From NCBI RefSeq assembly GCF_041886205.1, contig NZ_CP169029.1: 64,000 nt of DNA, one strand, 5' to 3'. Position numbers and translations under genes: made by a program. Of the stretch, positions 2,906-14,350 are shown piece by piece; the stretch's first letter is position 1, and every line of letters begins with the position of its first letter. This DNA is from Escherichia coli. Lineage in GTDB: Bacteria; Pseudomonadota; Gammaproteobacteria; Enterobacterales; Enterobacteriaceae. The notes under the pieces were generated by a model. The model worked only from the letters and a program-made list of their open reading frames with translations, was not told the origin of the DNA and did no database searches.

Positions 2906-3288
2906 TCCTGTTCTTTAACTCTTAACGTAAAAACCGCTTCGGCGGCAATGCCGATCAGTTAAGGAGCGGTTGACTGATCCTTAAACTGCGGCACTATAAC
3001 GGCTTCCACTCCAGGGAGCCGTTTTCTTATGCCACTTCTCAATGATCTGTTCGCCGCATGAGCCTCAGCGCTGATGGCGAGGTCGGAGAAAAGGTCCTGT
3101 CGCGCAATGCCATTACTCAGGCCCGGCGACGGGTGGCACCGCGCCTCTGGAATGGCTCTTTCATCAGACGGCACAGATCCGGGGAGCAGAACATTACCCC
3201 AAAGATAGCTGGCGTGTATTACAGCCCTTTGTCGTGCACGGGGGACACCGGATAGCAGGAAGTCTGGGGTATATTGCTGGCCTACAAT

Positions 3289-3566: not shown

Positions 3567-4613
3567 TTAGAACCAAAATTCAAGACCGGCGCGGTAAAAA
3601 TAGTCATTACTTTCTGAATTATAGGCGTCAGTTCGACCAATACGGACATAAGGGAGAAAACCATTTTCCATATTCATCATTAACTGTAAAGACGTCACTT
3701 TATCGGCGGTGTCTTTCTGGGTGACATTGTCTATTTTATAATCATTATTTTTGGCATACCCTAGCTTAGCACCATAGATACCATGCCAGTATTCGCCAAT
3801 TAAACTATAGGCATCCTGGGTGCTTTTAACATGGGTAATAAGGTCGGTCGTTTGACCATTTTTATAGCCCGCGTAAAACCTCAGACCAAGATCTGTAATG
3901 GGTATCTCGAGGCCCAAAACATAACCAGAGGCATCCTCCAGATTGTCATTTAACGTGTCATCGGTCGGTTGAACTGATTTGTTGCGAGTTTCTTCATAAG
4001 CAACATGTACTTTCACTGTAGAGAACGGCGTCCAGGTTACCCGTGAGCTGTAAGTCGTCGATCCAGAAACCGTAGAATCATCGCGATTAACGCTGAGAAC
4101 CACATCAAATCCCCCATAGTCTTTTGTTGCAAGGCTACCGTCATAGCGCACCATATTCGACATGCGATTGCTTTGATGCCAATGAACGTCACCTCCCCAG
4201 TCAAAAACGCGACCGAGACCGGGGTTGGTATAAGGCCAGTCAATGATTTCGTATAACGCCCCCTTCATGCGGCCAAAGCGAAGTTTCCCATACTTACCTT
4301 CAAACCCCACAAAGGTATCAAACTTTCCCAGACCAGAGTCGTTGGCCTCATAACCAACATAACCACTTTCAATCTGGAATATAACATTTACACCTTCAGT
4401 TATTTCTTTGTTCCCGCGAAAACCAATATATGATTCGTTATCGAGAGTATAATCATAATTCCTTTCATTGGCCTGAGTGGTAAAAATGGACATGGCTAAT
4501 TTACCATAGATTTCCAGGTTAAAATCTTTTGGCCCTCCCACTTGCATTGCATTTACTATTGTAGGCATAGTCGTAAGCAAAGAAATGCAAATAATATTAC
4601 TTGTTTTATCCAT
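3567..4613 (-). CDS. Putative outer-membrane beta-barrel porin/channel (signal peptide, C-terminal Phe)
   Basis: 348-aa ORF; N-terminal signal peptide ending ...PTIVNA; alternating hydrophobic/aromatic beta-strand pattern throughout; terminal ...GLEFWF typical of OM beta-barrels; AT-rich coding sequence. Confidence 0.7.
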   Translation of the reverse strand: MDKTSNIICISLLTTMPTIVNAMQVGGPKDFNLEIYGKLAMSIFTTQANERNYDYTLDNESYIGFRGNKEITEGVNVIFQIESGYVGYEANDSGLGKFDTFVGFEGKYGKLRFGRMKGALYEIIDWPYTNPGLGRVFDWGGDVHWHQSNRMSNMVRYDGSLATKDYGGFDVVLSVNRDDSTVSGSTTYSSRVTWTPFSTVKVHVAYEETRNKSVQPTDDTLNDNLEDASGYVLGLEIPITDLGLRFYAGYKNGQTTDLITHVKSTQDAYSLIGEYWHGIYGAKLGYAKNNDYKIDNVTQKDTADKVTSLQLMMNMENGFLPYVRIGRTDAYNSESNDYFYRAGLEFWF

Positions 4614-4833
4614 AAGTTGCCCCAGTAATTTTATATCCGAAAAGAGTAAAACCCGCCTTCATGGAGGGCTGTATTCATTACGCCATGAAAGGGCGTATTA
4701 AAATCTTTAAAAAGAAGTCTTCTGCCAGTCCTGTGAGATTTAAATCCAAAGGCAATAAGACAGAGCCAAAACCAGTGGATGACCACGCCCATAGAACGTG
4801 GTTTTCAGTTGGCAATAAATATTGAAAATAGAA

Positions 4834-5691
4834 TTATTTAGTTCTATTGATAATGTCCAGTGAAGATATTATTTTCTCCACATTATCTCCCCGATTAATA
4901 AATAATAACGCATTGAATAAAACATCAACCATAAAACTTTGTGCAGCGGTAATCGTTGATGAATCTGACTGATAAGGATTTGACGTCCCACCCGTCAGTA
5001 AGACAACATCAGCGTACTGACTTAATGAGGAATGCTTTAGTTTACTAATAACAATAGTCATCGCCCCTTTCTCTTTCACTCTTCTTAACGCATCGACAAC
5101 ATCGCGCGTTTCACCAGAGTGTGAAATCGCAACCACCACATCCTTTTTCCCAACGTTGTTCGAATTTAAGGTCATGGTATGATTGTCGATCAGAGCATCG
5201 ACGTTTGCCATAATTCTCATGAATCGATATTTGGCATACAGGACGGATATGGCTGACATACCAATGCCGTAGAAATAAACCTGCCCCGCTTTGCTCAGAC
5301 CGTCAGCTGCACGCATTAGGGTCTGTTCCTCTTGCAGGGCAAGCGTTTCATTGATAACAACGTAATTATCATTAGCCAGCTGTTGTGCAATCCCTGTCAT
5401 GGAGTTCGTCTGCTCATCAAGAGAAATCACTTTTGATAACAATGTATCGTCTGTATCTGTTTCCAGGCGAAGAGTCGTCTTTAATTCTGAAAAGCCCTTG
5501 TATCCCAGCTTTTTACAAAACCGAATAATAGACGCCTCACCAACATTCATTGCATCCGCTAATTTTGCAATGCTCATATTGATGAATTGCATACGATTAT
5601 TTTTAATAAACTGGTAAATACGTATTTCAGTCTGGGTCAATTCATTAATTCTGGTGTTAATTAACGTGTTAAAGACGACTCGGGTTTTCAT
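4834..5691 (-). CDS. RpiR-family transcriptional regulator (HTH + SIS domain)
   Basis: 285-aa ORF; N-terminal HTH segment (IAKLADAMNVGEASIIRFCKKLGYKGFSELK) and C-terminal SIS-like region (VVVAISHSGETRDV); last gene of the PTS operon, 7 bp downstream of the IIA gene. Confidence 0.85.
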   Translation of the reverse strand: MKTRVVFNTLINTRINELTQTEIRIYQFIKNNRMQFINMSIAKLADAMNVGEASIIRFCKKLGYKGFSELKTTLRLETDTDDTLLSKVISLDEQTNSMTGIAQQLANDNYVVINETLALQEEQTLMRAADGLSKAGQVYFYGIGMSAISVLYAKYRFMRIMANVDALIDNHTMTLNSNNVGKKDVVVAISHSGETRDVVDALRRVKEKGAMTIVISKLKHSSLSQYADVVLLTGGTSNPYQSDSSTITAAQSFMVDVLFNALLFINRGDNVEKIISSLDIINRTK

Positions 5692-5698
5692 TAAGTAC

Positions 5699-6004
5699 TC
5701 ACTCCATCTTTTTATAAACCTCTATCAATTCTGTCACAAGTTCACGGCAAAGCATACCTGTCATAAGGTGATCTTGGGCGTGAACCATCACCAGAGTGAT
5801 TTGCAGTTTACCTACCCCCTCATCCAGACCAATTAGCCGAGTCTGCACCTCGTGTGCCTGCCTGAAGGCATCGTCAGAAACCTTTAAAGAGGCTTCCGCT
5901 TCAGCAAAGCTCCCCGCTTTGGCGAACCTGAGCGCCTCCATGGCACAACTGCGACCTTCGCCAGCGGCGATAATCAGCGACATCACATCATTTTCATAGC
6001 TCAT
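5699..6004 (-). CDS. PTS EIIA component, lactose/cellobiose family
   Basis: 101-aa ORF with size and helical pattern of the lactose/cellobiose IIA family; conserved His region (VMVHAQDHLM). Confidence 0.85.
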   Translation of the reverse strand: MSYENDVMSLIIAAGEGRSCAMEALRFAKAGSFAEAEASLKVSDDAFRQAHEVQTRLIGLDEGVGKLQITLVMVHAQDHLMTGMLCRELVTELIEVYKKME

Positions 6005-6040: not shown

Positions 6041-6352
6041 TCATTTTGATGAAATCAGATCAACGGCCTGTTGATACACTTTTTCACCATTCATAGCCCC
6101 ATACAGTAACGGGCTGATGGCCTCTGATTTCTTGCCATTCATTTCTGCCAGCTTTTGTATTTCCGTCAGCTTAAATCGAATCTGAGGCGCAACCAGTACG
6201 ACGTCATAATTCGCGATGACATCTTTCAGAACATCAACGCCGTGAGCTTCAATAACTGATTCATGGCCGACGGAATTGGCGTAATCTTTCATTCGCTTCA
6301 TTAACATTGAGGTAGACATTCCCGCAGCGCACACTAAAAGTATCTTATTCAT
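6041..6352 (-). CDS. PTS EIIB component, lactose/cellobiose family
   Basis: 103-aa ORF starting MNKILLVCAAGMSTSMLMK; the phospho-Cys loop CAAGMSTS is diagnostic of cellobiose-type IIB. Confidence 0.9.
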   Translation of the reverse strand: MNKILLVCAAGMSTSMLMKRMKDYANSVGHESVIEAHGVDVLKDVIANYDVVLVAPQIRFKLTEIQKLAEMNGKKSEAISPLLYGAMNGEKVYQQAVDLISSK

Positions 6353-6376: not shown

Positions 6377-7921
6377 TTATGTCACAGTAATATGTAAACC
6401 ACTCATCCGCCGGAAAGGGGCGGAAATGGAAGTGATCGTAGGACTGCGGCCGTTAAAGCTATAGTGAATATTTTCCATCCAGGTCTTTTCGATTTCAGAC
6501 TTAATTTTATCGAACACCATCGTTTCCTTTTCTTCAAATGAGGAATAGCTCTGGCCAATTGAAGGTAAATATTCAAACTGAACAGGGAAGCGGACTTCGG
6601 TCTGGTAAGCCCAGTCCGATACCAGCCTTTCTTTTAAGAAACGTTCGATAGCGTCAGCATTATCGCCCATGGTCGAAAAGACAAGGTTCGCTATCCCCGT
6701 ACCTAACGAATTACACGTTGTGTTCCAGCCTGCGTAGCCCTTAATGGTATCGAGTGCGCCGGCTTTATCCAGCGCCCGAATAAGTTCAGTTTCACCGCCG
6801 TTTGACATCGCCACATCGATGACTACCACTGACACCTGCAAAGCTCTGCTGGCAATTTCTTTTGCATAGGTCACCAGGTCACGATGGGTGTAGTAAGTGA
6901 TATTTTTATACTTTGGCTTCCGCACACCGGTATGCAGGTTATAGCCATAGCTAATATCAAAAGCCTCCTGCATTATCTCACCGCACCCATTGATCGCTAA
7001 AACAGGCAGCGAGGCATCATTATCGACCAACGTTATACCCGACGCGGCTGCATACGAACGCAGTGAGTGTATAAAAGGACGATCTTCATAATTCGGGATA
7101 TAGGTTTTAAACAGTTCGTTTGAATAGAGTGTGGTGGCTATAAAATCCTTTTTCCTCATCGACAAATAGGCTTTGGTCAACAATGTGCATCCAGACTCAT
7201 CGGTGCCAGGATGAACAAACACCCGGTCCTGTACCCCAAGCAGGGATATCTTTTCGTAAATGCGTTCCTGATCCTGCATCGTAAAACCAAATTCCGCGGT
7301 ATCGTCCAGCGGGATTATCAGCTGATCGATAATCTTTTCATCAACGAGTTCTATCGCATTCTCAATGAGCTGCAGATTTTTACTTCTGCGCGACAGCCAG
7401 TCGTCAAAGGAAGCAGAATTAATAGCGGAACGATGTGCAAGCAGATGCGCTTTTTCGTCTTCGCTCAGCCCGACACGCTTCTCTTTGTCAGACAGATAAC
7501 CAACCTGAAAAATTGAATGCCCGATATGTGCATAGTAATCCGGTTCTTCTTCACTGGAATTATATTTTGGCGTACGTAGCACCAGTGAAGATGCATAAAT
7601 CTTAAGTGCCGGATAACTTTCTTTCAGTGTTTTAATTTTATTTAACCTTGCTATAAGCTCAGTTAATTCCATCTGATGAATACGCGCGGGAAAAAGTCCA
7701 CCGTAGAGATACATATCCAGGCTGATAATTAACGCATCGGAATCGGCACAGTGGCTGTTTATAAAGTCATCTACAGCCTGATGTGAAGCTGGTTGTTTTT
7801 TGTATCCTAAAATCTCTTTCGCTGGCATTTTTAACGAAATATTGCTGTCCATCGAGGCCAGAGAAATCAGGAAGTCATAGTTATAAGGTCGGATATCCAG
7901 AGGTATGCTAATTATATTCAT
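6377..7921 (-). CDS. Uncharacterised 514-aa protein embedded in PTS operon (possibly DUF4127-like)
   Basis: Long intact AT-rich ORF, tightly spaced between the IIC and IIB genes (15 bp and 24 bp gaps); no signal peptide or TM segments evident; no catalytic motif I can assign by eye. The family guess comes from memory of size and PTS context only. Confidence 0.6.
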   Translation of the reverse strand: MNIISIPLDIRPYNYDFLISLASMDSNISLKMPAKEILGYKKQPASHQAVDDFINSHCADSDALIISLDMYLYGGLFPARIHQMELTELIARLNKIKTLKESYPALKIYASSLVLRTPKYNSSEEEPDYYAHIGHSIFQVGYLSDKEKRVGLSEDEKAHLLAHRSAINSASFDDWLSRRSKNLQLIENAIELVDEKIIDQLIIPLDDTAEFGFTMQDQERIYEKISLLGVQDRVFVHPGTDESGCTLLTKAYLSMRKKDFIATTLYSNELFKTYIPNYEDRPFIHSLRSYAAASGITLVDNDASLPVLAINGCGEIMQEAFDISYGYNLHTGVRKPKYKNITYYTHRDLVTYAKEIASRALQVSVVVIDVAMSNGGETELIRALDKAGALDTIKGYAGWNTTCNSLGTGIANLVFSTMGDNADAIERFLKERLVSDWAYQTEVRFPVQFEYLPSIGQSYSSFEEKETMVFDKIKSEIEKTWMENIHYSFNGRSPTITSISAPFRRMSGLHITVT

Positions 7922-7936: not shown

Positions 7937-9259
7937 TTATTTCTGTTTATTCATGGCGAAAACAAATGGCAGATAAATGATAACCGACAAGCTGATTAAA
8001 AATACGGATAGCACCGCAGCTCTCCAGTCTCCTCCCGTAGCCAGGAAGGCGCTAATCACTGGTGGCGTTGTCCATGGCACAAGAACATATGTATGGTTAA
8101 TCAAATCCATTGCCGTCGCGGCATAAGCAATCACGATGCTGATAATCGGAGTGAATAAAAATGGTACAATTAGCACCGGGTTGAACATAATTGGCAAACC
8201 AAAAATGATGGGTTCATTTATGTTGAACAACATCCCAGGAGTTGCCAGACGAGTAATCGCACGATGCTCTGATTTTTTCGCTGCAATCCATAAAGCAATC
8301 AGTAAGCCGATTGTCTGGCCTCCGCCGCCCATAAATCCAAAGGCATCGATGAACGGTTTTGTGACGATATGTGGGATTTCAAGGCCAGCCTTAAACGCGG
8401 CAGTATTTTCCTGAATCGCCACCAGCAGGGTTGTCTCAGTAATAGGGTACATGATACTGGCACCATGGATCCCTGCCCACCATAATCCGTTTTGCGTCAA
8501 AAGTAGTCCTATTACTCCGCTCAGACCCTGTAAAATATTTTGCAGCGGAGCCTGAATCATCAGAGTAACGATTTCATGTATGTTTTTGTTGAAGAGACTG
8601 CTTAACGACCATGCAAAGAGACTCAGCAAGGTTAACACCAGGATCATCGGTATTAATACGTTAAAGCTCCTTGATACGGAGGGGGGAACTGAATCAGATA
8701 AAGTAATTTTCAATTTAGATGAGGCCGAAACTTTGCGAAAAAGTTCAGTGGAAATAAGCGCCACAAATATGCCTACAAACATACCAGACGCGCCACTTTC
8801 ATTGCCGCTGATTAGCCCCGAAACCTGAAAAACCTCGCCCGTCGGCGCTGTAACGGGAATGGTGACCGGGAACAAAACAAATAAACATGCCAGTGAGAAG
8901 ATGGCATACGTTATCCCATCCTCGCCATAGCTGTTGGCTAATCGATATGAAATCATCACCGTTGCCAGAAAGGCGAGAATATTCAGCGTTCCGTTATAGA
9001 CGCGGATGCCAATTTCCTGTAGGTGGCGAACCCATGCGCCTTCCAGCCCCAGAAAACCGACTAAACCGGATTCGCCGTTGAGCAATACATTATTTATTAA
9101 TATAAATAGAGACGCAGCAATAATTAAAGGCATGAGCGCGACAAATGATTCCCTCACTGCCGAAAGATGTCGCTGTCCTGAAAAATCGCCCGCCCAATTA
9201 GAGATCTTGTCAATGAAAACAAGACCACTCCCACTTTTAATTTTATTGATGAAATTCAT
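7937..9259 (-). CDS. PTS EIIC permease, lactose/cellobiose family
   Basis: 440-aa polytopic membrane protein with multiple hydrophobic segments; first gene of the operon IIC-unknown-IIB-IIA-RpiR. Confidence 0.85.
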   Translation of the reverse strand: MNFINKIKSGSGLVFIDKISNWAGDFSGQRHLSAVRESFVALMPLIIAASLFILINNVLLNGESGLVGFLGLEGAWVRHLQEIGIRVYNGTLNILAFLATVMISYRLANSYGEDGITYAIFSLACLFVLFPVTIPVTAPTGEVFQVSGLISGNESGASGMFVGIFVALISTELFRKVSASSKLKITLSDSVPPSVSRSFNVLIPMILVLTLLSLFAWSLSSLFNKNIHEIVTLMIQAPLQNILQGLSGVIGLLLTQNGLWWAGIHGASIMYPITETTLLVAIQENTAAFKAGLEIPHIVTKPFIDAFGFMGGGGQTIGLLIALWIAAKKSEHRAITRLATPGMLFNINEPIIFGLPIMFNPVLIVPFLFTPIISIVIAYAATAMDLINHTYVLVPWTTPPVISAFLATGGDWRAAVLSVFLISLSVIIYLPFVFAMNKQK

Positions 9260-9474: not shown

Positions 9475-9554
9475 CTGATACGACGGGAAGCTATAAAGGT
9501 ACAGAAAAGCATAAAAGAGCGCCGTTAGAAATCAGCTTTAAATTTGCCTTTCAG
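9475..9554 (+). repeat. Imperfect direct repeat, copy B (partner of 3289..3370)
   Basis: ctgatacgacgggaagctataaaggtacagaaaagcataaaagagcgccgttagaaatcagctttaaatttgcctttcag; same orientation as copy A. Confidence 0.8.
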
Positions 9555-9759
9555 TTTATACAACAGAAATGATAGTGCCGGGAAACACGTCGTCGCCGGG
9601 AATGCTCCCAAGAGACTGGAGTATCGGAGGGGAAACCTGGAAGCGCTGTTCATAACAAAACGCCCCGACCGTCAAGGCCGCGGGTGGTGAAGATATCAAA
9701 ACGTCCATGCTGTTCCGCTTAAGTGAACGGCATTGCGCTGCAGTGGGTTTTTTATGCCT

Positions 9760-10584
9760 TCAAAGTAGTAGCGGTAGGGTCGCACTCGCCGTTTGCTGGC
9801 TCACATCGTTGTACTTTTCATCCAGTCCAAACAGCGACGTGGTGAGCAGTTCCACCAACAGCATGACACCAACCTTGGCGTTTAGCGCGCCAGCACTCAA
9901 CGGACCTTCTGGTTTGGCTGCGACCAGTTGAATATCACTCAGCGAAGCCAGCGGACTATGCGGTGTATTACTCAGCGCCAGTATGCGTACACCTTGCTTA
10001 CGCGCCAGTTTAACCACATGCAGCAGATCGCGTGTGGAGCCTGAACTGGATATTGCCACTACCAGCGTGTCTTTGCTTAGCGTTGTAGCGTTCATAGCAG
10101 CACGGTGCATGTCGCTGAACAATTGCGCGGGTTTGCCGAGGCGCAGGAGTTTGTAATGTAAATACTCTCCCAGAATAGCGCTGGCCGCTACGCCATAAAT
10201 TTGTACCGACTGAGCCTGATGCAGCGCCAGAGCGGCTGCTTCCAGTAATGTTCTGTCGAGTAATTTTGCCGTGTCCTGCAGCGCTTGCACGGATTCATTG
10301 ACGACATTGTCAATCTCATCACCGCTGCGCTCTACCAGCTCTCCTTGCCGGAGATCGAGTGCCAGCGCCATCTTAAATTCGTTATAGCCCTTACACCCCA
10401 GCGTACGGCACAGACGTGTGACGCTCGCCTCGCTGGTGTCGCTTTCACGCGCCAGTTCGGTAATCGTCAGGTAGACCACTCTTGCCGGATCGCTAAGCAC
10501 AAACTCTCCCAGCTTCTGTTGAGTTCGACTATATCCATCAACGCTCTGGCGCAATCTCAGCAGTAGGTTTTCATTTTCTGACAT
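9760..10584 (-). CDS. RpiR/MurR-like transcriptional regulator (HTH + SIS)
   Basis: 274-aa ORF; N-terminal HTH (ITELARESDTSEASVTRLCRTLGCKGYNEFK), SIS-type C-terminal domain (LVVAISSSGSTRDL); divergent from the EIICB gene. Confidence 0.85.
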   Translation of the reverse strand: MSENENLLLRLRQSVDGYSRTQQKLGEFVLSDPARVVYLTITELARESDTSEASVTRLCRTLGCKGYNEFKMALALDLRQGELVERSGDEIDNVVNESVQALQDTAKLLDRTLLEAAALALHQAQSVQIYGVAASAILGEYLHYKLLRLGKPAQLFSDMHRAAMNATTLSKDTLVVAISSSGSTRDLLHVVKLARKQGVRILALSNTPHSPLASLSDIQLVAAKPEGPLSAGALNAKVGVMLLVELLTTSLFGLDEKYNDVSQQTASATLPLLL

Positions 10585-10710
10585 GCAAAATCCTTAATGC
10601 GTTTCTCTGCCGATAGTGTGGCGGAAAGTAGGGGAGAGATGCTAGTCATTTTAAAAAAGTATGATCGGTGCCCTGGTTTTTGATGGTAATTTTCATTTTT
10701 ATAATTAGTT

Positions 10711-12306
10711 GTGGTAAAAATTTTCATCAAAGAGCGGGGAGATGAAAAAATGATGCAAATATTTAGCGGCGCTTCGTCAGGCGCATGGTTTGAAAAAGCG
10801 CAGCGGTTCGGCAAATCGTTCATGCTGCCGATTGCGGTATTGCCCGCAGCGGGGTTGTTGTTGGGGATTGGTGGGGCTCTGTCGAATCCCAATACGCTGA
10901 CGGCCTACCCATTCTTGAATGTCGACTGGCTGCAGGCAATTTTCACGATCATGACCAGCGCAGGTTCTATCGTGTTTGCCAACCTGTCGGTGCTTTTTGC
11001 GGTTGGTGTTGCCGTGGGACTGGCGAAAACGGATAAAGGCACGGCGGGCCTTGCGGCATTGCTGGCTTTTCTGGTGATGAATGCCACCATCAATGCTTTG
11101 TTAACGCTCAACGGAACGTTGGCGCACGAAAATCCAGGTGCTGTGGGCCAAGGGATGACGCTGGGCATTCAGACGCTGGAAACGGGCGTTTTTGGCGGGG
11201 TCGTGATTGGTCTGGTCACCTGCGCACTGCATAACCGTTTCAATAAAGTCTCACTCCCTCAGTTTCTTGGCTTTTTCAGTGGTTCGCGTTTTGTACCGAT
11301 TATCAGTTCGCTTGCCGCGATTGTAGTGGGGGTGATCATGACGGTGGTATGGCCGCATTTCCAGAAGCTCATTTTTGGACTGGGCGGTCTGGTGGATGCG
11401 ACGGGCTATCTGGGGACGCTACTGTATGGTTTCATTCTGCGTATGCTTGGCCCACTGGGTTTACACCATATCTTTTATTTGCCGTTCTGGACAACAGCGC
11501 TGGGAGGGAGCGAAATCGTCAACGGTCAACTGGTCGAAGGCACCCAGCGTATTTTCTTTGCCCAACTTGCCGATCCGAATACGCAGCAGTTTTATGCCGG
11601 TACCTCGCGCTTTATGTCCGGGCGCTTTATCACCATGATGTTTGGCCTGCTTGGCGCATGCCTCGCGATGTACCACACGGCAAAACCGGAGAAGAGAAAG
11701 CTTGTCGCCGGACTGCTGTTGTCGGCGGCCCTGACTTCTTTCCTGACGGGCATCACTGAGCCTATTGAGTTCTCCTTCCTGTTTGTGGCTCCGGTGTTAT
11801 ATGTCATTCACGCCTTCTTCGATGGTCTGGCGTTTATGATGGCGCATATTTTACATATCACTATTGGGCAAACCTTTTCGGGTGGACTGATCGATTTCCT
11901 CCTCTTCGGCGTGCTACAGGGGGAAGCGAAAACCAACTGGATGTACGTCCCCTTGGTTGGGGTTCCGTGGTTCTTTCTTTACTACTTCACCTTCCGTTAT
12001 TTGATTAACCGTTTTAACTGGCTGACGCCCGGGCGCGAGAACACAGCCCAGGTGGAGTCCGGTCTGCCTCAGAGCGAACGCGCAGCGGCAGTCATCGCCG
12101 GACTGGGAGGCAAAGAGAATCTGGAAGAGGTGGACTGTTGCGCCACACGCTTACGCGTGACGGTGAAAGAGAGCAGCAAGGTAGATGAAGCTGCGCTGAA
12201 AGCGACCGGAGCGCGTGGCGTAATTATTCGCGGCAACGGTGTTCAGGTGATTTATGGCCCGCATGTCACCATAATTAAAAATGAAGTCGAAGAGATCTTA
12301 TCATGA
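10711..12306 (+). CDS. PTS EIICB component, glucose/N-acetylglucosamine superfamily
   Basis: 531-aa ORF; N-terminal IIC membrane domain, C-terminal IIB domain with the phospho-Cys motif ([11 protein letters not shown]). The start may instead be an internal Met at about 10750 (MMQIFSG...). Stop overlaps the next gene's start (ATGA). Confidence 0.85.
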
Positions 12307-12995
12307 TGAAAACTGTACTGGATTCCCTGAAAGGTAAACTAATTGTCTCCTGCCAGGCGCTGGAAAATGAACCCCTGCACAGCCCGTTTATTATGTCGCG
12401 TATGGCGCTGGCGGCAGCGCAGGGCGGTGCGGCAGGTATCCGTGCTAACAGCGTGGTAGATATTCGCTCGATCAAAGAGAGCGTCTCCCTGCCGGTAATA
12501 GGGATTATCAAGCGTGATTATCCGGGCTGCGAGGTGTTTATTACGGCCACTTTGCAGGAAGTGGATGAGCTGATGACCGTTGAGCCGGAAATTATTGCTC
12601 TGGATGCGACAGCGCGCCCGCGCCCCGGTGGGCAAATGCTGGAAGAGCTGGTTATGCAAATCCGTGTCCGCTATCCGTCCGTACTGCTGATGGCGGATAT
12701 CGCCACCGTCGATGAGGCGGTAACAGCCGAGCGGCTGGGTTTTGACTGCGTGGGCACCACGCTCTATGGCTATACCGCGGACACTGCCGGGCATGTAATG
12801 GTGGATAACGACTGCGGTTTTTTACGTGAGGTGTTGGCGGCGGTCACAATACCGGTCGTGGCGGAAGGTAATATCGATACCCCGGAACGCGCCGCACGTT
12901 GCCTGGCATTAGGCGCGCATACCGTGGTGGTTGGAGGCGCTATCACGCGTCCGCAGCAGATAACGGCACGATTTGTCGCGGCGATCGCCTCGTAA
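12303..12995 (+). CDS. Putative N-acetylmannosamine-6-phosphate 2-epimerase (NanE family)
   Basis: 230-aa ORF ([26 protein letters not shown]...) with NanE-like TIM-barrel pattern; translationally coupled to the EIICB gene. Confidence 0.8.
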
Positions 12996-14077: not shown

Positions 14078-14350
14078 GAGTTCCCCGCGCCAGCGGGGAT
14101 AAACCGTTCGCTGGCAATCCACTCAGGAATTTCGGGAAGAGTTCCCCGCGCCAGCGGGGATAAACCGGGCAGTACCGACATGGACGGTCACCACGAGTTG
14201 AGTTCCCCGCGCCAGCGGGGATAAACCGTGTATAGCGCCAAAATTGACGAAAGACATGTTGAGTTCCCCGCGCCAGCGGGGATAAACCGGTTGTAGCTGA
14301 CAATGTAAATCATGGATTTACGAGTTCCCCGTGCCAGCGGGGATAACCAT
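14078..14350 (+). CRISPR. Type I-E CRISPR array: 5 repeats (last degenerate), 4 spacers of 32 bp
   Basis: 29-bp repeat GAGTTCCCCGCGCCAGCGGGGATAAACCG at 14078, 14139, 14200, 14261; degenerate terminal repeat gagttccccgtgccagcggggataaccat at 14322..14350. Spacers at 14107..14138, 14168..14199, 14229..14260, 14290..14321. Confidence 0.97.

What the first reader, a model, noticed from the sequence alone, without database searches (positions are those of the whole stretch)
3567..4613. Orphan outer-membrane beta-barrel (porin-like) gene adjacent to the PTS operon
The 348-aa protein has a clear signal peptide and a C-terminal aromatic residue (…EFWF) with beta-strand periodicity, yet does not read like OmpC/OmpF/PhoE or LamB by eye. 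It is separated from the PTS operon by ~220 bp, so it probably has its own promoter, and it shares the AT-rich composition. It may be a substrate-specific channel feeding the adjacent PTS.
Basis: partly seen in the sequence, partly recalled or inferred. Interest (0 to 1): 0.4.

Follow-up and report, generated by a model that had tools for sequence, protein, structure and literature searches.

The report
Vibrio-type chitoporin relative in PTS cassette
The gene encodes a real outer-membrane channel related to the sugar-specific "chitoporin" of marine Vibrio. It always travels with one mobile sugar-uptake gene cassette, so it is probably that cassette's outer-membrane entry gate, though the sugar it admits is unknown.

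Summary
Window 3567-4613 (- strand) is an intact 348-aa porin gene with a signal-peptide-like N-terminus, a C-terminal ...GLEFWF, 41.9% GC, and a 220-bp gap from the upstream rpiR gene.

It is not an orphan. It matches Pfam Porin_4. Its closest solved relative by sequence (E 6e-35) and by fold (TM 0.79, 16 strands) is the Vibrio chitoporin VhChiP. It is 44% identical to the V. cholerae porin at the locus I recognise as chiP (VC0972).

Every relative with at least 49% identity lies next to the same genes: PTS IIC, DUF4127, IIB, IIA and RpiR. These relatives come from E. coli, Enterobacter, V. parahaemolyticus, a Pantoea and unnamed contigs. None of 79 more distant relatives has these neighbours. 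This clade is monophyletic (100/100 bootstraps).

The clade keeps most of VhChiP's sugar-contact residues. It replaces two that are invariant in all 61 other relatives: R94 to F, and D147 to N.

NanE and acetyl-esterases recur next to DUF4127 genes. This points to an N-acetylated, possibly ManNAc-type, sugar rather than plain chitin fragments.

The inferred separate promoter is not supported. About 169 bp of the gap is an E. coli-specific insertion, and the gap is 53 bp in Enterobacter.

The cassette is IS4-flanked, present in 9 of 5426 complete E. coli genomes, and IS-disrupted in 5 of those 9.

The parts
3567..4613 (-). Porin gene, 348 aa. It belongs to the chitoporin family (Porin_4 superfamily) and is the last gene of the cassette.
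   Evidence: ORF. Pfam Porin_4, 69.8 bits against a cut-off of 27. VhChiP is the best PDB sequence hit at E 6e-35 and the best fold hit at E 1.6e-24, TM 0.79. The AF2 model has pLDDT 86.8 and 16 strands. dN/dS is 0.06.
4548..4613 (-). Predicted signal peptide, residues 1-22, with cleavage after VNA.
   Evidence: Sequence. The xA|M junction is conserved in all 8 clade members. pLDDT is below 50 for residues 1-21. Not tested with a dedicated predictor.
4164..4265 (-). Constriction loop L3, residues 117-150. It carries the conserved motif YEIIDWPYTNPGLGRVFDWGG (equivalents of VhChiP D122, W123, N127, D135, W136 and R148). It also carries the clade-specific K117, A119, the S148 insertion and N149 (VhChiP D147).
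   Evidence: Helix 119-125 and a loop between strands 5 and 6 in the model. Residue mapping. Contact residues are taken from PMC5768706 section 8 and PMC8608610.
4320..4322 (-). Codon TTT for F98, at the position of VhChiP R94, which binds the acetamido group of GlcNAc +3. It is F in 8 of 8 PTS-linked porins and R in 61 of 61 other relatives.
   Evidence: codon read.
4645..4813 (.). An insertion of about 169 bp in the rpiR-porin spacer. It is absent from the Enterobacter orthologous locus. It is a low-copy repeat found at about 83% identity elsewhere in about 20 E. coli genomes.
   Evidence: It folds more stably than shuffles (z -2.7).
4834..5691 (-). MurR/RpiR-family regulator with HTH_6 and a sugar-phosphate-binding SIS domain.
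5699..6004 (-). PTS EIIA of the lactose/cellobiose/chitobiose family.
   Evidence: The closest NCBIfam model is chitobiose IIA, at 120.9 bits, below its cut-off of 148.
6041..6352 (-). PTS EIIB of the lactose/cellobiose family.
6377..7921 (-). DUF4127 protein, 514 aa. It is the presumed cytoplasmic enzyme of the pathway; its function is unknown.
   Evidence: Pfam DUF4127, E 6e-121. AF2 pLDDT 94.6. No informative solved relative.
7937..9259 (-). PTS EIIC of the lactose/cellobiose family; first gene of the cassette.
   Evidence: TIGR00410 lacE subfamily, 362 bits. It scores below the equivalog cut-offs for cellobiose and chitobiose IIC.
2934..3053 (.). IS4-family transposase fragment at the left edge of the island.
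   Evidence: about 91% identity to annotated IS4 transposase genes.
9475..9722 (+). IS4-family transposase fragment at the right edge of the cassette.
   Evidence: RefSeq annotation of identical DNA. Coordinates were transferred from L001 using an offset of 9949.
12306..12995 (+). NanE (ManNAc-6-P 2-epimerase) of the neighbouring RpiR/PTS-EIICB/NanE module. A NanE gene adjoins DUF4127 genes in most other genomes examined.

Best explanation
The gene encodes a 16-stranded outer-membrane sugar channel of the Vibrio chitoporin family; by family precedent it is trimeric.

It is the last gene of a horizontally mobile six-gene cassette: PTS IIC, DUF4127, IIB, IIA, RpiR, porin. The proposed pathway has four steps:
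1. The channel lets the cassette's substrate cross the outer membrane by facilitated diffusion. The sugar slides along conserved tryptophans (W126, W139) and polar residues of loop L3 and the barrel wall.
2. The Lac/chitobiose-family PTS imports and phosphorylates the sugar.
3. DUF4127 processes the phosphorylated sugar, and in many genomes NanE and acetyl-esterases act as well.
4. The RpiR repressor senses a sugar phosphate.

The substrate is most likely an N-acetylated amino-sugar di- or oligosaccharide that resembles chito-oligosaccharides but is not identical to them. The reason is that two binding residues, otherwise invariant, are replaced throughout this clade at subsites +3 and +4 (VhChiP R94 to F98, and D147 to N149).

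Shown here: family membership, fold, residue pattern, conserved synteny and purifying selection. Inferred: trimer, specificity, substrate, co-transcription.
For: - Family. Pfam Porin_4. VhChiP is the best PDB hit by sequence (E 6e-35; profile E 2.5e-93) and by fold (E 1.6e-24 against 2e-16 for the next porin). The protein is 44% identical to the V. cholerae porin whose neighbours are ligA and toxRS; I recognise that locus as chiP VC0972 (own knowledge).
- Fold. 16 strands with an L3 helix and loop in a pLDDT 86.8 model.
- Contact residues. E53, D122, W123, N127, D135, W136, R148, R312 and E347 are all kept. R94 is F in 8 of 8 clade members against R in 61 of 61 others. D147 is N, S or H in 8 of 8 against D in 61 of 61. 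The residue list comes from PMC5768706 and PMC8608610.
- Synteny. All loci with at least 49% identity carry IIC-DUF4127-IIB-IIA-RpiR, at different chromosomal sites and in one rearranged order; 0 of 79 more distant loci do.
- The clade is monophyletic in 100 of 100 bootstraps.
- dN/dS is 0.06.
- The core module also occurs in Clostridium and Coprobacillaceae loci with no porin gene called nearby. These are Gram-positive taxa without an outer membrane (own knowledge), so the porin looks like the outer-membrane add-on of the Gram-negative versions.
- NanE adjoins 7 of 11 DUF4127 loci, and AXE1, GDSL or SASA esterases adjoin 3.
Against: - No experiment supports any of this, and no ligand or conductance data exist.
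- Only a monomer was modelled, and its coordinates could not be inspected. The pore-lining position of F98 and N149 therefore rests on alignment to VhChiP.
- The N-terminal extension that plugs VhChiP is mostly missing: 6-7 residues against about 15. Gating must therefore differ.
- DUF4127's activity is unknown.
- IIC-DUF4127 pairs exist in Cronobacter and Superficieibacter without this porin, so the channel is not obligatory for the pathway.
- In E. coli, 5 of 9 cassettes are IS-disrupted, and the E. coli spacer carries an insertion of unknown effect on expression.
Confidence: 0.6

Rival explanations
1. It is a functional chitoporin orthologue. It takes up chito-oligosaccharides or chitobiose, and the adjacent chitobiose-like PTS then imports them.
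For: It is in the same family as VhChiP and the V. cholerae chitoporin-locus porin. Both key tryptophans and 7 of 9 conserved polar contacts are kept. The IIA and IIC proteins are closest to chitobiose/cellobiose models.
Against: R94 and D147, invariant in all 61 other family members, are replaced in all 8 clade members. R94 is one of the two arginines that bind the GlcNAc-3 acetamido group. No chitinase, ChbG/ChbF-type or GH20 genes lie in any of the cassettes. The recurrent partners are DUF4127, NanE and acetyl-esterases. The PTS proteins score below the chitobiose equivalog cut-offs.
Confidence: 0.2
2. It is a general, non-specific diffusion porin that happens to ride on the island.
For: It has the 16-stranded Porin_4 architecture shared with OmpF, OmpC, PorB and Omp32.
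Against: Its closest relatives are specific channels. The L3 sugar-binding motif is nearly invariant. Linkage to one PTS cassette is maintained through at least six lineages, several chromosomal sites and one gene-order rearrangement. This is not expected for a hitch-hiker.
Confidence: 0.08
3. In E. coli the gene is a silent or decaying passenger. It works in its donor lineages but is not expressed or useful here.
For: The cassette is in only 9 of 5426 complete genomes. It is IS-disrupted in IIC or DUF4127 in 5 of those, and deleted in 2 further strains. It is AT-rich DNA flanked by IS4 fragments. A 169-bp insertion separates the porin from the operon. No promoter-like site was found in the spacer or upstream of IIC.
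Against: The porin ORF matched at 100% identity in all 9 genomes. In the window all six genes are intact. The exact protein is seen on 443 contigs. This rival concerns expression in E. coli and does not contradict what the protein is.
Confidence: 0.12

Closest known systems
VhChiP, chitoporin of Vibrio harveyi/campbellii (PDB 5MDQ, 5MDO; Aunkham et al. 2018, PMC5768706)
   Same: It is the best sequence and fold match. Both have a 16-stranded barrel with an L3 constriction. Residues E53, D122, W123, N127, D135, W136, R148, R312 and E347 are conserved.
   Different: Identity is only 30-35%. R94 is F and D147 is N. W331 and F84 are absent, though these also vary within Vibrio. The N-terminal plug segment is about 8 residues shorter. 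The gene sits in a PTS/DUF4127 operon rather than standing alone in a chitin regulon.
Vibrio cholerae chitoporin ChiP (VC0972 locus; cluster P0013)
   Same: It is 44% identical over 93% of the length and is the closest group outside the PTS-linked clade.
   Different: The V. cholerae gene is stand-alone between ligA and a DUF2057 gene, with no Lac-family PTS, DUF4127 or RpiR within 10 kb. It keeps R94 and D147.
ScrY and BglH: sugar porins encoded within PTS sugar regulons of enterobacteria (own knowledge)
   Same: They share the working principle. A substrate-specific outer-membrane channel is encoded with, and feeds, a PTS permease for the same sugar.
   Different: ScrY and BglH belong to the 18-stranded LamB/maltoporin family. 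This protein gives no hit to that family and has 16 strands.
E. coli/Salmonella/Serratia ChiP (YbfM), an OprD-family chitoporin (own knowledge)
   Same: It has the same proposed physiological role of amino-sugar oligosaccharide entry ahead of a Lac-family PTS (chb).
   Different: It has an unrelated fold family (monomeric OprD type). The window protein matches Porin_4 only.

Membership tests
Gram-negative 16-stranded porin superfamily (Pfam Porin_4 / Porin_1 clan) | Profile match above the curated threshold | tested here: met
   Porin_4 at 69.8 bits against a cut-off of 27, covering residues 21-301.
Gram-negative 16-stranded porin superfamily (Pfam Porin_4 / Porin_1 clan) | 16 antiparallel strands with loop L3 folded into the barrel | tested here: met
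   The AF2 model (pLDDT 86.8) has 16 strands, with helix 119-125 and a loop to residue 150 between strands 5 and 6. TM is 0.64-0.73 to OmpT, Omp32, PorB and OmpF, excluding one non-crystallographic OmpC model at 0.53.
Gram-negative 16-stranded porin superfamily (Pfam Porin_4 / Porin_1 clan) | Sec signal peptide and C-terminal aromatic beta-signal | tested here: met
   The sequence has a 22-aa N-terminal hydrophobic segment ending VNA, and a C-terminal GLEFWF. No dedicated predictor was run.
Gram-negative 16-stranded porin superfamily (Pfam Porin_4 / Porin_1 clan) | Homotrimer in the outer membrane | not testable with these tools
   Only a monomer could be modelled.
Vibrionaceae chitoporin family (VhChiP / VcChiP) | Closest homology to characterised chitoporins rather than to general porins | tested here: met
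   phmmer against PDB gives VhChiP at E 6e-35, with PorB next at 2e-7. The profile search gives E 2.5e-93. Foldseek ranks VhChiP first. Identity to the V. cholerae chitoporin-locus porin is 44%.
Vibrionaceae chitoporin family (VhChiP / VcChiP) | Conserved sugar-stacking tryptophans W123 and W136 | tested here: met
   They correspond to W126 and W139.
Vibrionaceae chitoporin family (VhChiP / VcChiP) | Full set of invariant polar contacts to GlcNAc units (E53, R94, D122, N127, D135, D147, R148, R312, E347) | tested here: not met
   Seven of nine are kept. R94 is F98 and D147 is N149, and both are clade-wide substitutions. Both residues are invariant in 61 of 61 other relatives.
Vibrionaceae chitoporin family (VhChiP / VcChiP) | N-terminal plug that closes a neighbouring pore (shown for VhChiP) | tested here: inconclusive
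   The mature N-terminus has 6-7 residues before strand 1, against about 15 in VhChiP. No trimer model was possible. It is not known whether the plug is a feature of the whole family.
Vibrionaceae chitoporin family (VhChiP / VcChiP) | High-affinity, selective translocation of chito-oligosaccharides | not testable with these tools
   This needs electrophysiology or liposome swelling.
Vibrionaceae chitoporin family (VhChiP / VcChiP) | Genomic or regulatory association with chitin utilisation | tested here: not met
   The neighbours are Lac-family PTS, DUF4127 and RpiR, with NanE and esterases in other genomes. No chitinase or chb-type enzymes are present.
LamB/ScrY/BglH maltoporin family | Pfam LamB profile match; 18 strands | tested here: not met
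   No Pfam hit other than Porin_4. The model has 16 strands.
OprD-type ChiP (E. coli YbfM) | OprD-family profile match | tested here: not met
   No such Pfam or NCBIfam hit.

The most novel reading that the evidence does not exclude
The cassette is a complete, undescribed route from outer membrane to cytoplasm for a chitobiose-like sugar that carries N-acetylmannosamine and may be O-acetylated. One example would be ManNAc-beta-1,4-GlcNAc released from Gram-positive wall teichoic-acid linkage units or secondary cell-wall polymers.

In this reading the chitoporin scaffold has been re-tuned by the R94F and D147N substitutions. DUF4127 is a new family of phospho-sugar-processing enzymes, for instance a 6-phospho-N-acetylhexosaminidase. 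Its product, ManNAc-6-P, is passed to NanE.
Probability: 0.15. Interest if true: 0.7.

Novelty: new variant of a known kind. Interest (0 to 1): 0.45.

Why it matters
Chitoporins of the Vibrio type are studied as a marine chitin-recycling speciality. To my knowledge, enterobacteria are described as using an unrelated OprD-type ChiP.

Here a distinct branch of the Vibrio-type family is fixed inside a mobile PTS cassette that moves among E. coli, Enterobacter, Citrobacter, a Pantoea and Vibrio. It carries clade-wide changes at two otherwise invariant sugar-binding positions.

That makes it a natural experiment on how channel specificity is re-tuned. It also gives a strong genomic handle on the unknown function of DUF4127, a widespread family of about 500 residues. 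No solved structure resembles it, and it gets no mention in the searchable literature.

It is also a third structural solution to the 'porin inside a PTS regulon' design, after the LamB-type ScrY and BglH.

The practical importance for E. coli itself is small. The cassette is rare and is often inactivated by insertion sequences.

Tried and rejected
- Literature. 'DUF4127' and 'PF13552' each return zero papers. Searches combining chitoporin, E. coli and PTS terms, and nanE, RpiR and cellobiose-PTS terms, found nothing on this cassette.
- Context of a cyanobacterial DUF4127 (P0145): not on record.
- First bootstrap script timed out. It was redone with a faster distance routine.
- Promoter search. 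There is no sigma-70-like site on the coding strand in the rpiR-porin spacer and none upstream of IIC. The scan is consensus-only, so this is weak negative evidence.
- Plasmid carriage. There were no close matches, only about 30% identity hits on Vibrio and Photobacterium secondary replicons.
- Rejected readings: OmpC/OmpF/PhoE-type general porin, LamB-type maltoporin, OprD-type ChiP.
- I first took PDB 7EQM to be a V. cholerae structure. It is VhChiP lacking residues 1-19.
Full report
**Setting.** The window is E. coli chromosome. pyrG (35-1519) and eno (1607-2905) are followed by a low-GC stretch. Identical DNA occurs in complete E. coli genomes, where RefSeq lists in order: eno, 'porin', MurR/RpiR regulator, PTS IIA, PTS IIB, DUF4127, PTS IIC, an IS4 fragment, a second RpiR, a ptsG-like EIICB, NanE and queE.

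**The observation.**
- The ORF at 3567-4613 (- strand) is 348 aa.
- It begins MDKTSNIICISLLTTMPTIVNA|MQVGG and ends GLEFWF.
- The distance to the upstream rpiR gene (4834-5691) is 220 bp.
- GC is 41.9% for the gene and 43.1% for the six-gene cassette, against 51.1% for pyrG-eno.
- The gene is real and constrained. An Enterobacter hormaechei orthologue is 89% identical (E 1e-212). dN/dS between the two is 0.06 at dS of about 1.0.

**What the protein is.**
- Pfam places it in Porin_4 (69.8 bits, cut-off 27). NCBIfam gives only a weak partial PorB match.
- Against all PDB sequences, the best hits by far are the chitoporin VhChiP of Vibrio harveyi/campbellii. Entries 5MDQ and 5MDO score E 6e-35. 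The N-terminally truncated 7EQM scores 2e-34. The next hit is PorB at 2e-7.
- A profile of 68 family members scores VhChiP at E 2.5e-93.
- An AlphaFold2 model built on that alignment has mean pLDDT 86.8 and pTM 0.83. It has 16 strands, and a short helix plus a long loop (residues 117-150) between strands 5 and 6. That is the classical porin L3 constriction. Only residues 1-21 and one external loop have low confidence.
- Foldseek against the PDB again ranks VhChiP first (E 1.6e-24, TM 0.79, 30% identity). OmpT, Omp38, Omp32, PorB, OmpU and OmpF follow, from E 2e-16 downward and at 13-18% identity.
It is nevertheless not an orphan.

**Relatives.** In the 5.8-billion-protein search the relatives fall into two tiers.
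- Near tier, 49-89% identity, a handful of clusters: Enterobacter hormaechei, V. parahaemolyticus/alginolyticus and unnamed contigs. The 90% cluster that holds the E. coli protein also holds E. kobei and Citrobacter sequences. The exact E. coli sequence is seen on 443 contigs.
- Far tier, 44% identity or less: Vibrionaceae, Photobacterium, Salinivibrio, Moritella, Psychromonas and Plesiomonas porins, several of them named 'chitoporin' by their sources.
- One far-tier cluster, P0013 from V. cholerae, lies between ligA and a DUF2057 gene. ptsHI-crr is upstream and toxRS downstream. I recognise this locus as chiP, VC0972 (own knowledge). It is 44% identical to the window protein.

**Linkage to the PTS genes.** I read the surroundings of five near-tier proteins.
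- Each is adjacent to the same five genes: IIC, DUF4127, IIB, IIA and RpiR. The hosts are E. hormaechei (between a pgaA-type gene and a DUF554 gene), V. parahaemolyticus (next to type I-F Csy cas genes) and three metagenomic or SRA contigs.
- In one contig (L005) the order is rearranged. The porin follows a divergent NanE gene, yet it is still in the cluster.
- A scan of one genome per species (100,044 species) with the family alignment returned 80 loci. The only one above 44% identity, Candidatus Pantoea haifensis at 49%, again carries the cluster.
- tblastn of the five window proteins against all 90 loci found the cluster at every locus with at least 49% porin identity. It found none at the 79 loci with 44% or less.
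- The PTS-linked porins form a monophyletic group in 100 of 100 neighbour-joining bootstraps.

The wider chitoporin family, in contrast, is unlinked to such genes.

**Binding-site comparison.** The VhChiP structure papers list the residues that contact chitohexaose (PMC5768706 section 8; PMC8608610).
- Stacking residues: W123, W136, W331 and F84.
- Polar residues: E53, R94, D122, N127, D135, D147, R148, R312, N336 and E347.

I reconstructed the VhChiP sequence from the printed alignments, checked that its numbering reproduces these residues, and aligned it with the family.
- Kept in the window protein: E60, D125, W126, N130, D138, W139, R150, R324 and E345.
- W331, F84 and N336 vary across the family, so they carry no information here.
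- Two residues behave differently. R94 is arginine in all 61 non-linked relatives and phenylalanine (F98) in all 8 PTS-linked proteins. D147 is aspartate in all 61 and N, S or H (N149 here) in all 8.
- The alignment around both positions is gap-free or anchored by invariant neighbours: KF-DTF against ER-DTF, and SN-R against QD-R.
- R94, together with R148, hydrogen-bonds the acetamido carbonyl of GlcNAc +3. D147 contacts GlcNAc +4.
- Other clade-specific changes lie at the base of L3 (K117 for L, A119 for P), as a one-residue insertion before N149, and next to E345 (F346 for Y).
- The mature N-terminus is short: MQVGGP before KDFNLE. VhChiP has about 15 residues there, and they form the plug that closes a neighbouring pore.

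My reading is inference. The periplasmic-side subsites (+1 and +2) of a chitoporin are retained, while +3 and +4 and the gating have diverged.

**What the cassette handles.**
- The PTS proteins belong to the lactose/cellobiose/chitobiose family. They score below the equivalog cut-offs for chitobiose and cellobiose.
- DUF4127 (E 6e-121) is uncharacterised. Sources name all its homologues 'DUF4127 family protein'. No paper in the library mentions it. A pLDDT 94.6 model has no informative solved relative.
- Its gene neighbourhoods are more telling:
  - Cronobacter malonaticus has eno, IIC, DUF4127, NanE at the same chromosomal site as the E. coli island.
  - Superficieibacter has IIC and DUF4127 alone.
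  - A Clostridium has NanE, IIC, RpiR, DUF4127 and an AXE1 esterase.
  - Coprobacillaceae have NanE, IIC, a HAD phosphatase, DUF4127, a GDSL esterase, RpiR and a SASA (sialate-O-acetylesterase-type) protein.
- NanE adjoins 7 of 11 DUF4127 loci examined. That count includes the window, where NanE (12306-12995) belongs to the neighbouring module.
- The core of the system is therefore IIC plus DUF4127, often with RpiR, NanE and an acetyl-esterase. No porin gene is called in the Clostridium and Coprobacillaceae loci. The full Gram-negative versions add IIA, IIB and the porin.
- This is what one expects if the porin is the outer-membrane gate of the pathway.
- The NanE and esterase association suggests that the pathway ends in ManNAc-6-P and that the substrate may be O-acetylated. 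That fits a chitoporin-like channel with altered acetamido-binding subsites. The substrate itself remains unknown.

**Transcription.**
- Aligning the spacer with Enterobacter shows a 53-bp gap there. The last 34 or so bases before the start codon are conserved. The E. coli spacer holds an extra 169 bp or so (4645-4813).
- That segment recurs at about 83% identity at other sites in roughly 20 E. coli genomes. It folds somewhat better than shuffled sequence (z -2.7).
- No sigma-70-like site lies on the coding strand within the gap.
- The ancestral state is most simply a six-gene operon with the porin last. Whether the insertion insulates or drives the porin in E. coli is open.

**The island in E. 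coli.**
- The cassette is present in 9 of 5426 complete genomes, always on the chromosome at this site. It is not on plasmids.
- IS4-family fragments lie on both sides.
- Four genomes have it intact, and the window matches these. Three have IS1 in IIC and two have ISEc52 in DUF4127.
- Two further genomes carry a deletion running from about window 3520 into the ptsG-like gene.
- The cassette is thus a rare, horizontally acquired element in E. coli and is partly decaying. The porin matched at 100% identity in all nine genomes.

**Comparison with what is known.**
- By descent the protein belongs to the Vibrionaceae chitoporin family within the Porin_4 superfamily.
- It fails two family features that I could test: the full invariant polar contact set, and the chitin-related gene context. 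One feature, the N-plug, is inconclusive. I therefore file it as a divergent branch of the family rather than as 'a chitoporin'.
- By working principle it resembles ScrY and BglH, which are LamB-family porins encoded inside PTS regulons, and the OprD-type ChiP that serves the E. coli chb PTS (own knowledge). It has a different fold from both.

**Verdict.**
- The 'orphan' label and the separate-promoter inference are not supported.
- Novelty is moderate. This is a new, PTS-embedded, specificity-altered variant of a known channel family, and it offers a useful lead to the function of DUF4127.
- Interest: 0.45.

Noticed in passing
window 4645-4813: A segment of about 169 bp is inserted between rpiR and the porin and is absent from the Enterobacter locus. 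Copies at about 83% identity lie unannotated at other chromosomal sites in about 20 E. coli genomes. It may be a small non-autonomous mobile element. Only short internal inverted repeats were found.
   Followed up: partly
window 9760-12995: A second sugar module (RpiR, Glc-family PTS EIICB, NanE) abuts the cassette. This version is at least 99% identical in only 11 genomes. An 87-89% identical copy sits at a different chromosomal locus in about 470 genomes. The eno-queE interval thus appears to collect ManNAc-related islands, and Cronobacter has IIC-DUF4127-NanE at the same site.
   Followed up: partly
window 6377-7921 (DUF4127) and loci L091, L092, L093, L095: DUF4127 gives a very confident model (pLDDT 94.6) with no informative solved relative, and it has many invariant acidic pairs (D206 D207, D241 E242, E279 D280). 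Its genes recur with Lac-family IIC, NanE, RpiR and acetyl-esterases (AXE1, GDSL, SASA) in Firmicutes and Proteobacteria. It is a good candidate for a new sugar-phosphate enzyme family.
   Followed up: partly
window 2934-3053 and 9475-9722: IS4-family transposase fragments bracket the porin/PTS cassette. Among the nine E. coli carriers, IS1 (in IIC) and ISEc52 (in DUF4127) insertions inactivate the cassette in five. Two more strains have a deletion from about 3520 into the ptsG-like gene.
   Followed up: yes
loci L078, L079 (Psychromonas) and L086 (Photobacterium obscurum), about 11250-11950: Distant chitoporin-family porins (31-33% identity) have an RpiR-like regulator gene immediately downstream (23-24% identity to the window RpiR). 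This may be another sugar-system-linked branch of the family.
   Followed up: no
locus L004 (V. parahaemolyticus) 1-1724: The Vibrio copy of the cassette lies about 4 kb from type I-F CRISPR-Cas (Csy2/3/4) genes. This suggests that it sits in a variable or mobile region there too.
   Followed up: no
loci L007/L008 7057-8088: The porin called in these SRA assemblies ends early (…DAYNAEEKD) without the C-terminal beta-signal, while tblastn similarity continues 30 bp past the called stop. This is either a frameshift (pseudogene) or an assembly error.
   Followed up: no
window 14139-14291: A short CRISPR array lies downstream of queE, with the E. coli type I-E repeat GAGTTCCCCGCGCCAGCGGGGATAAACCG. 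It is annotated as CRISPR in the identical RefSeq genome.
   Followed up: no
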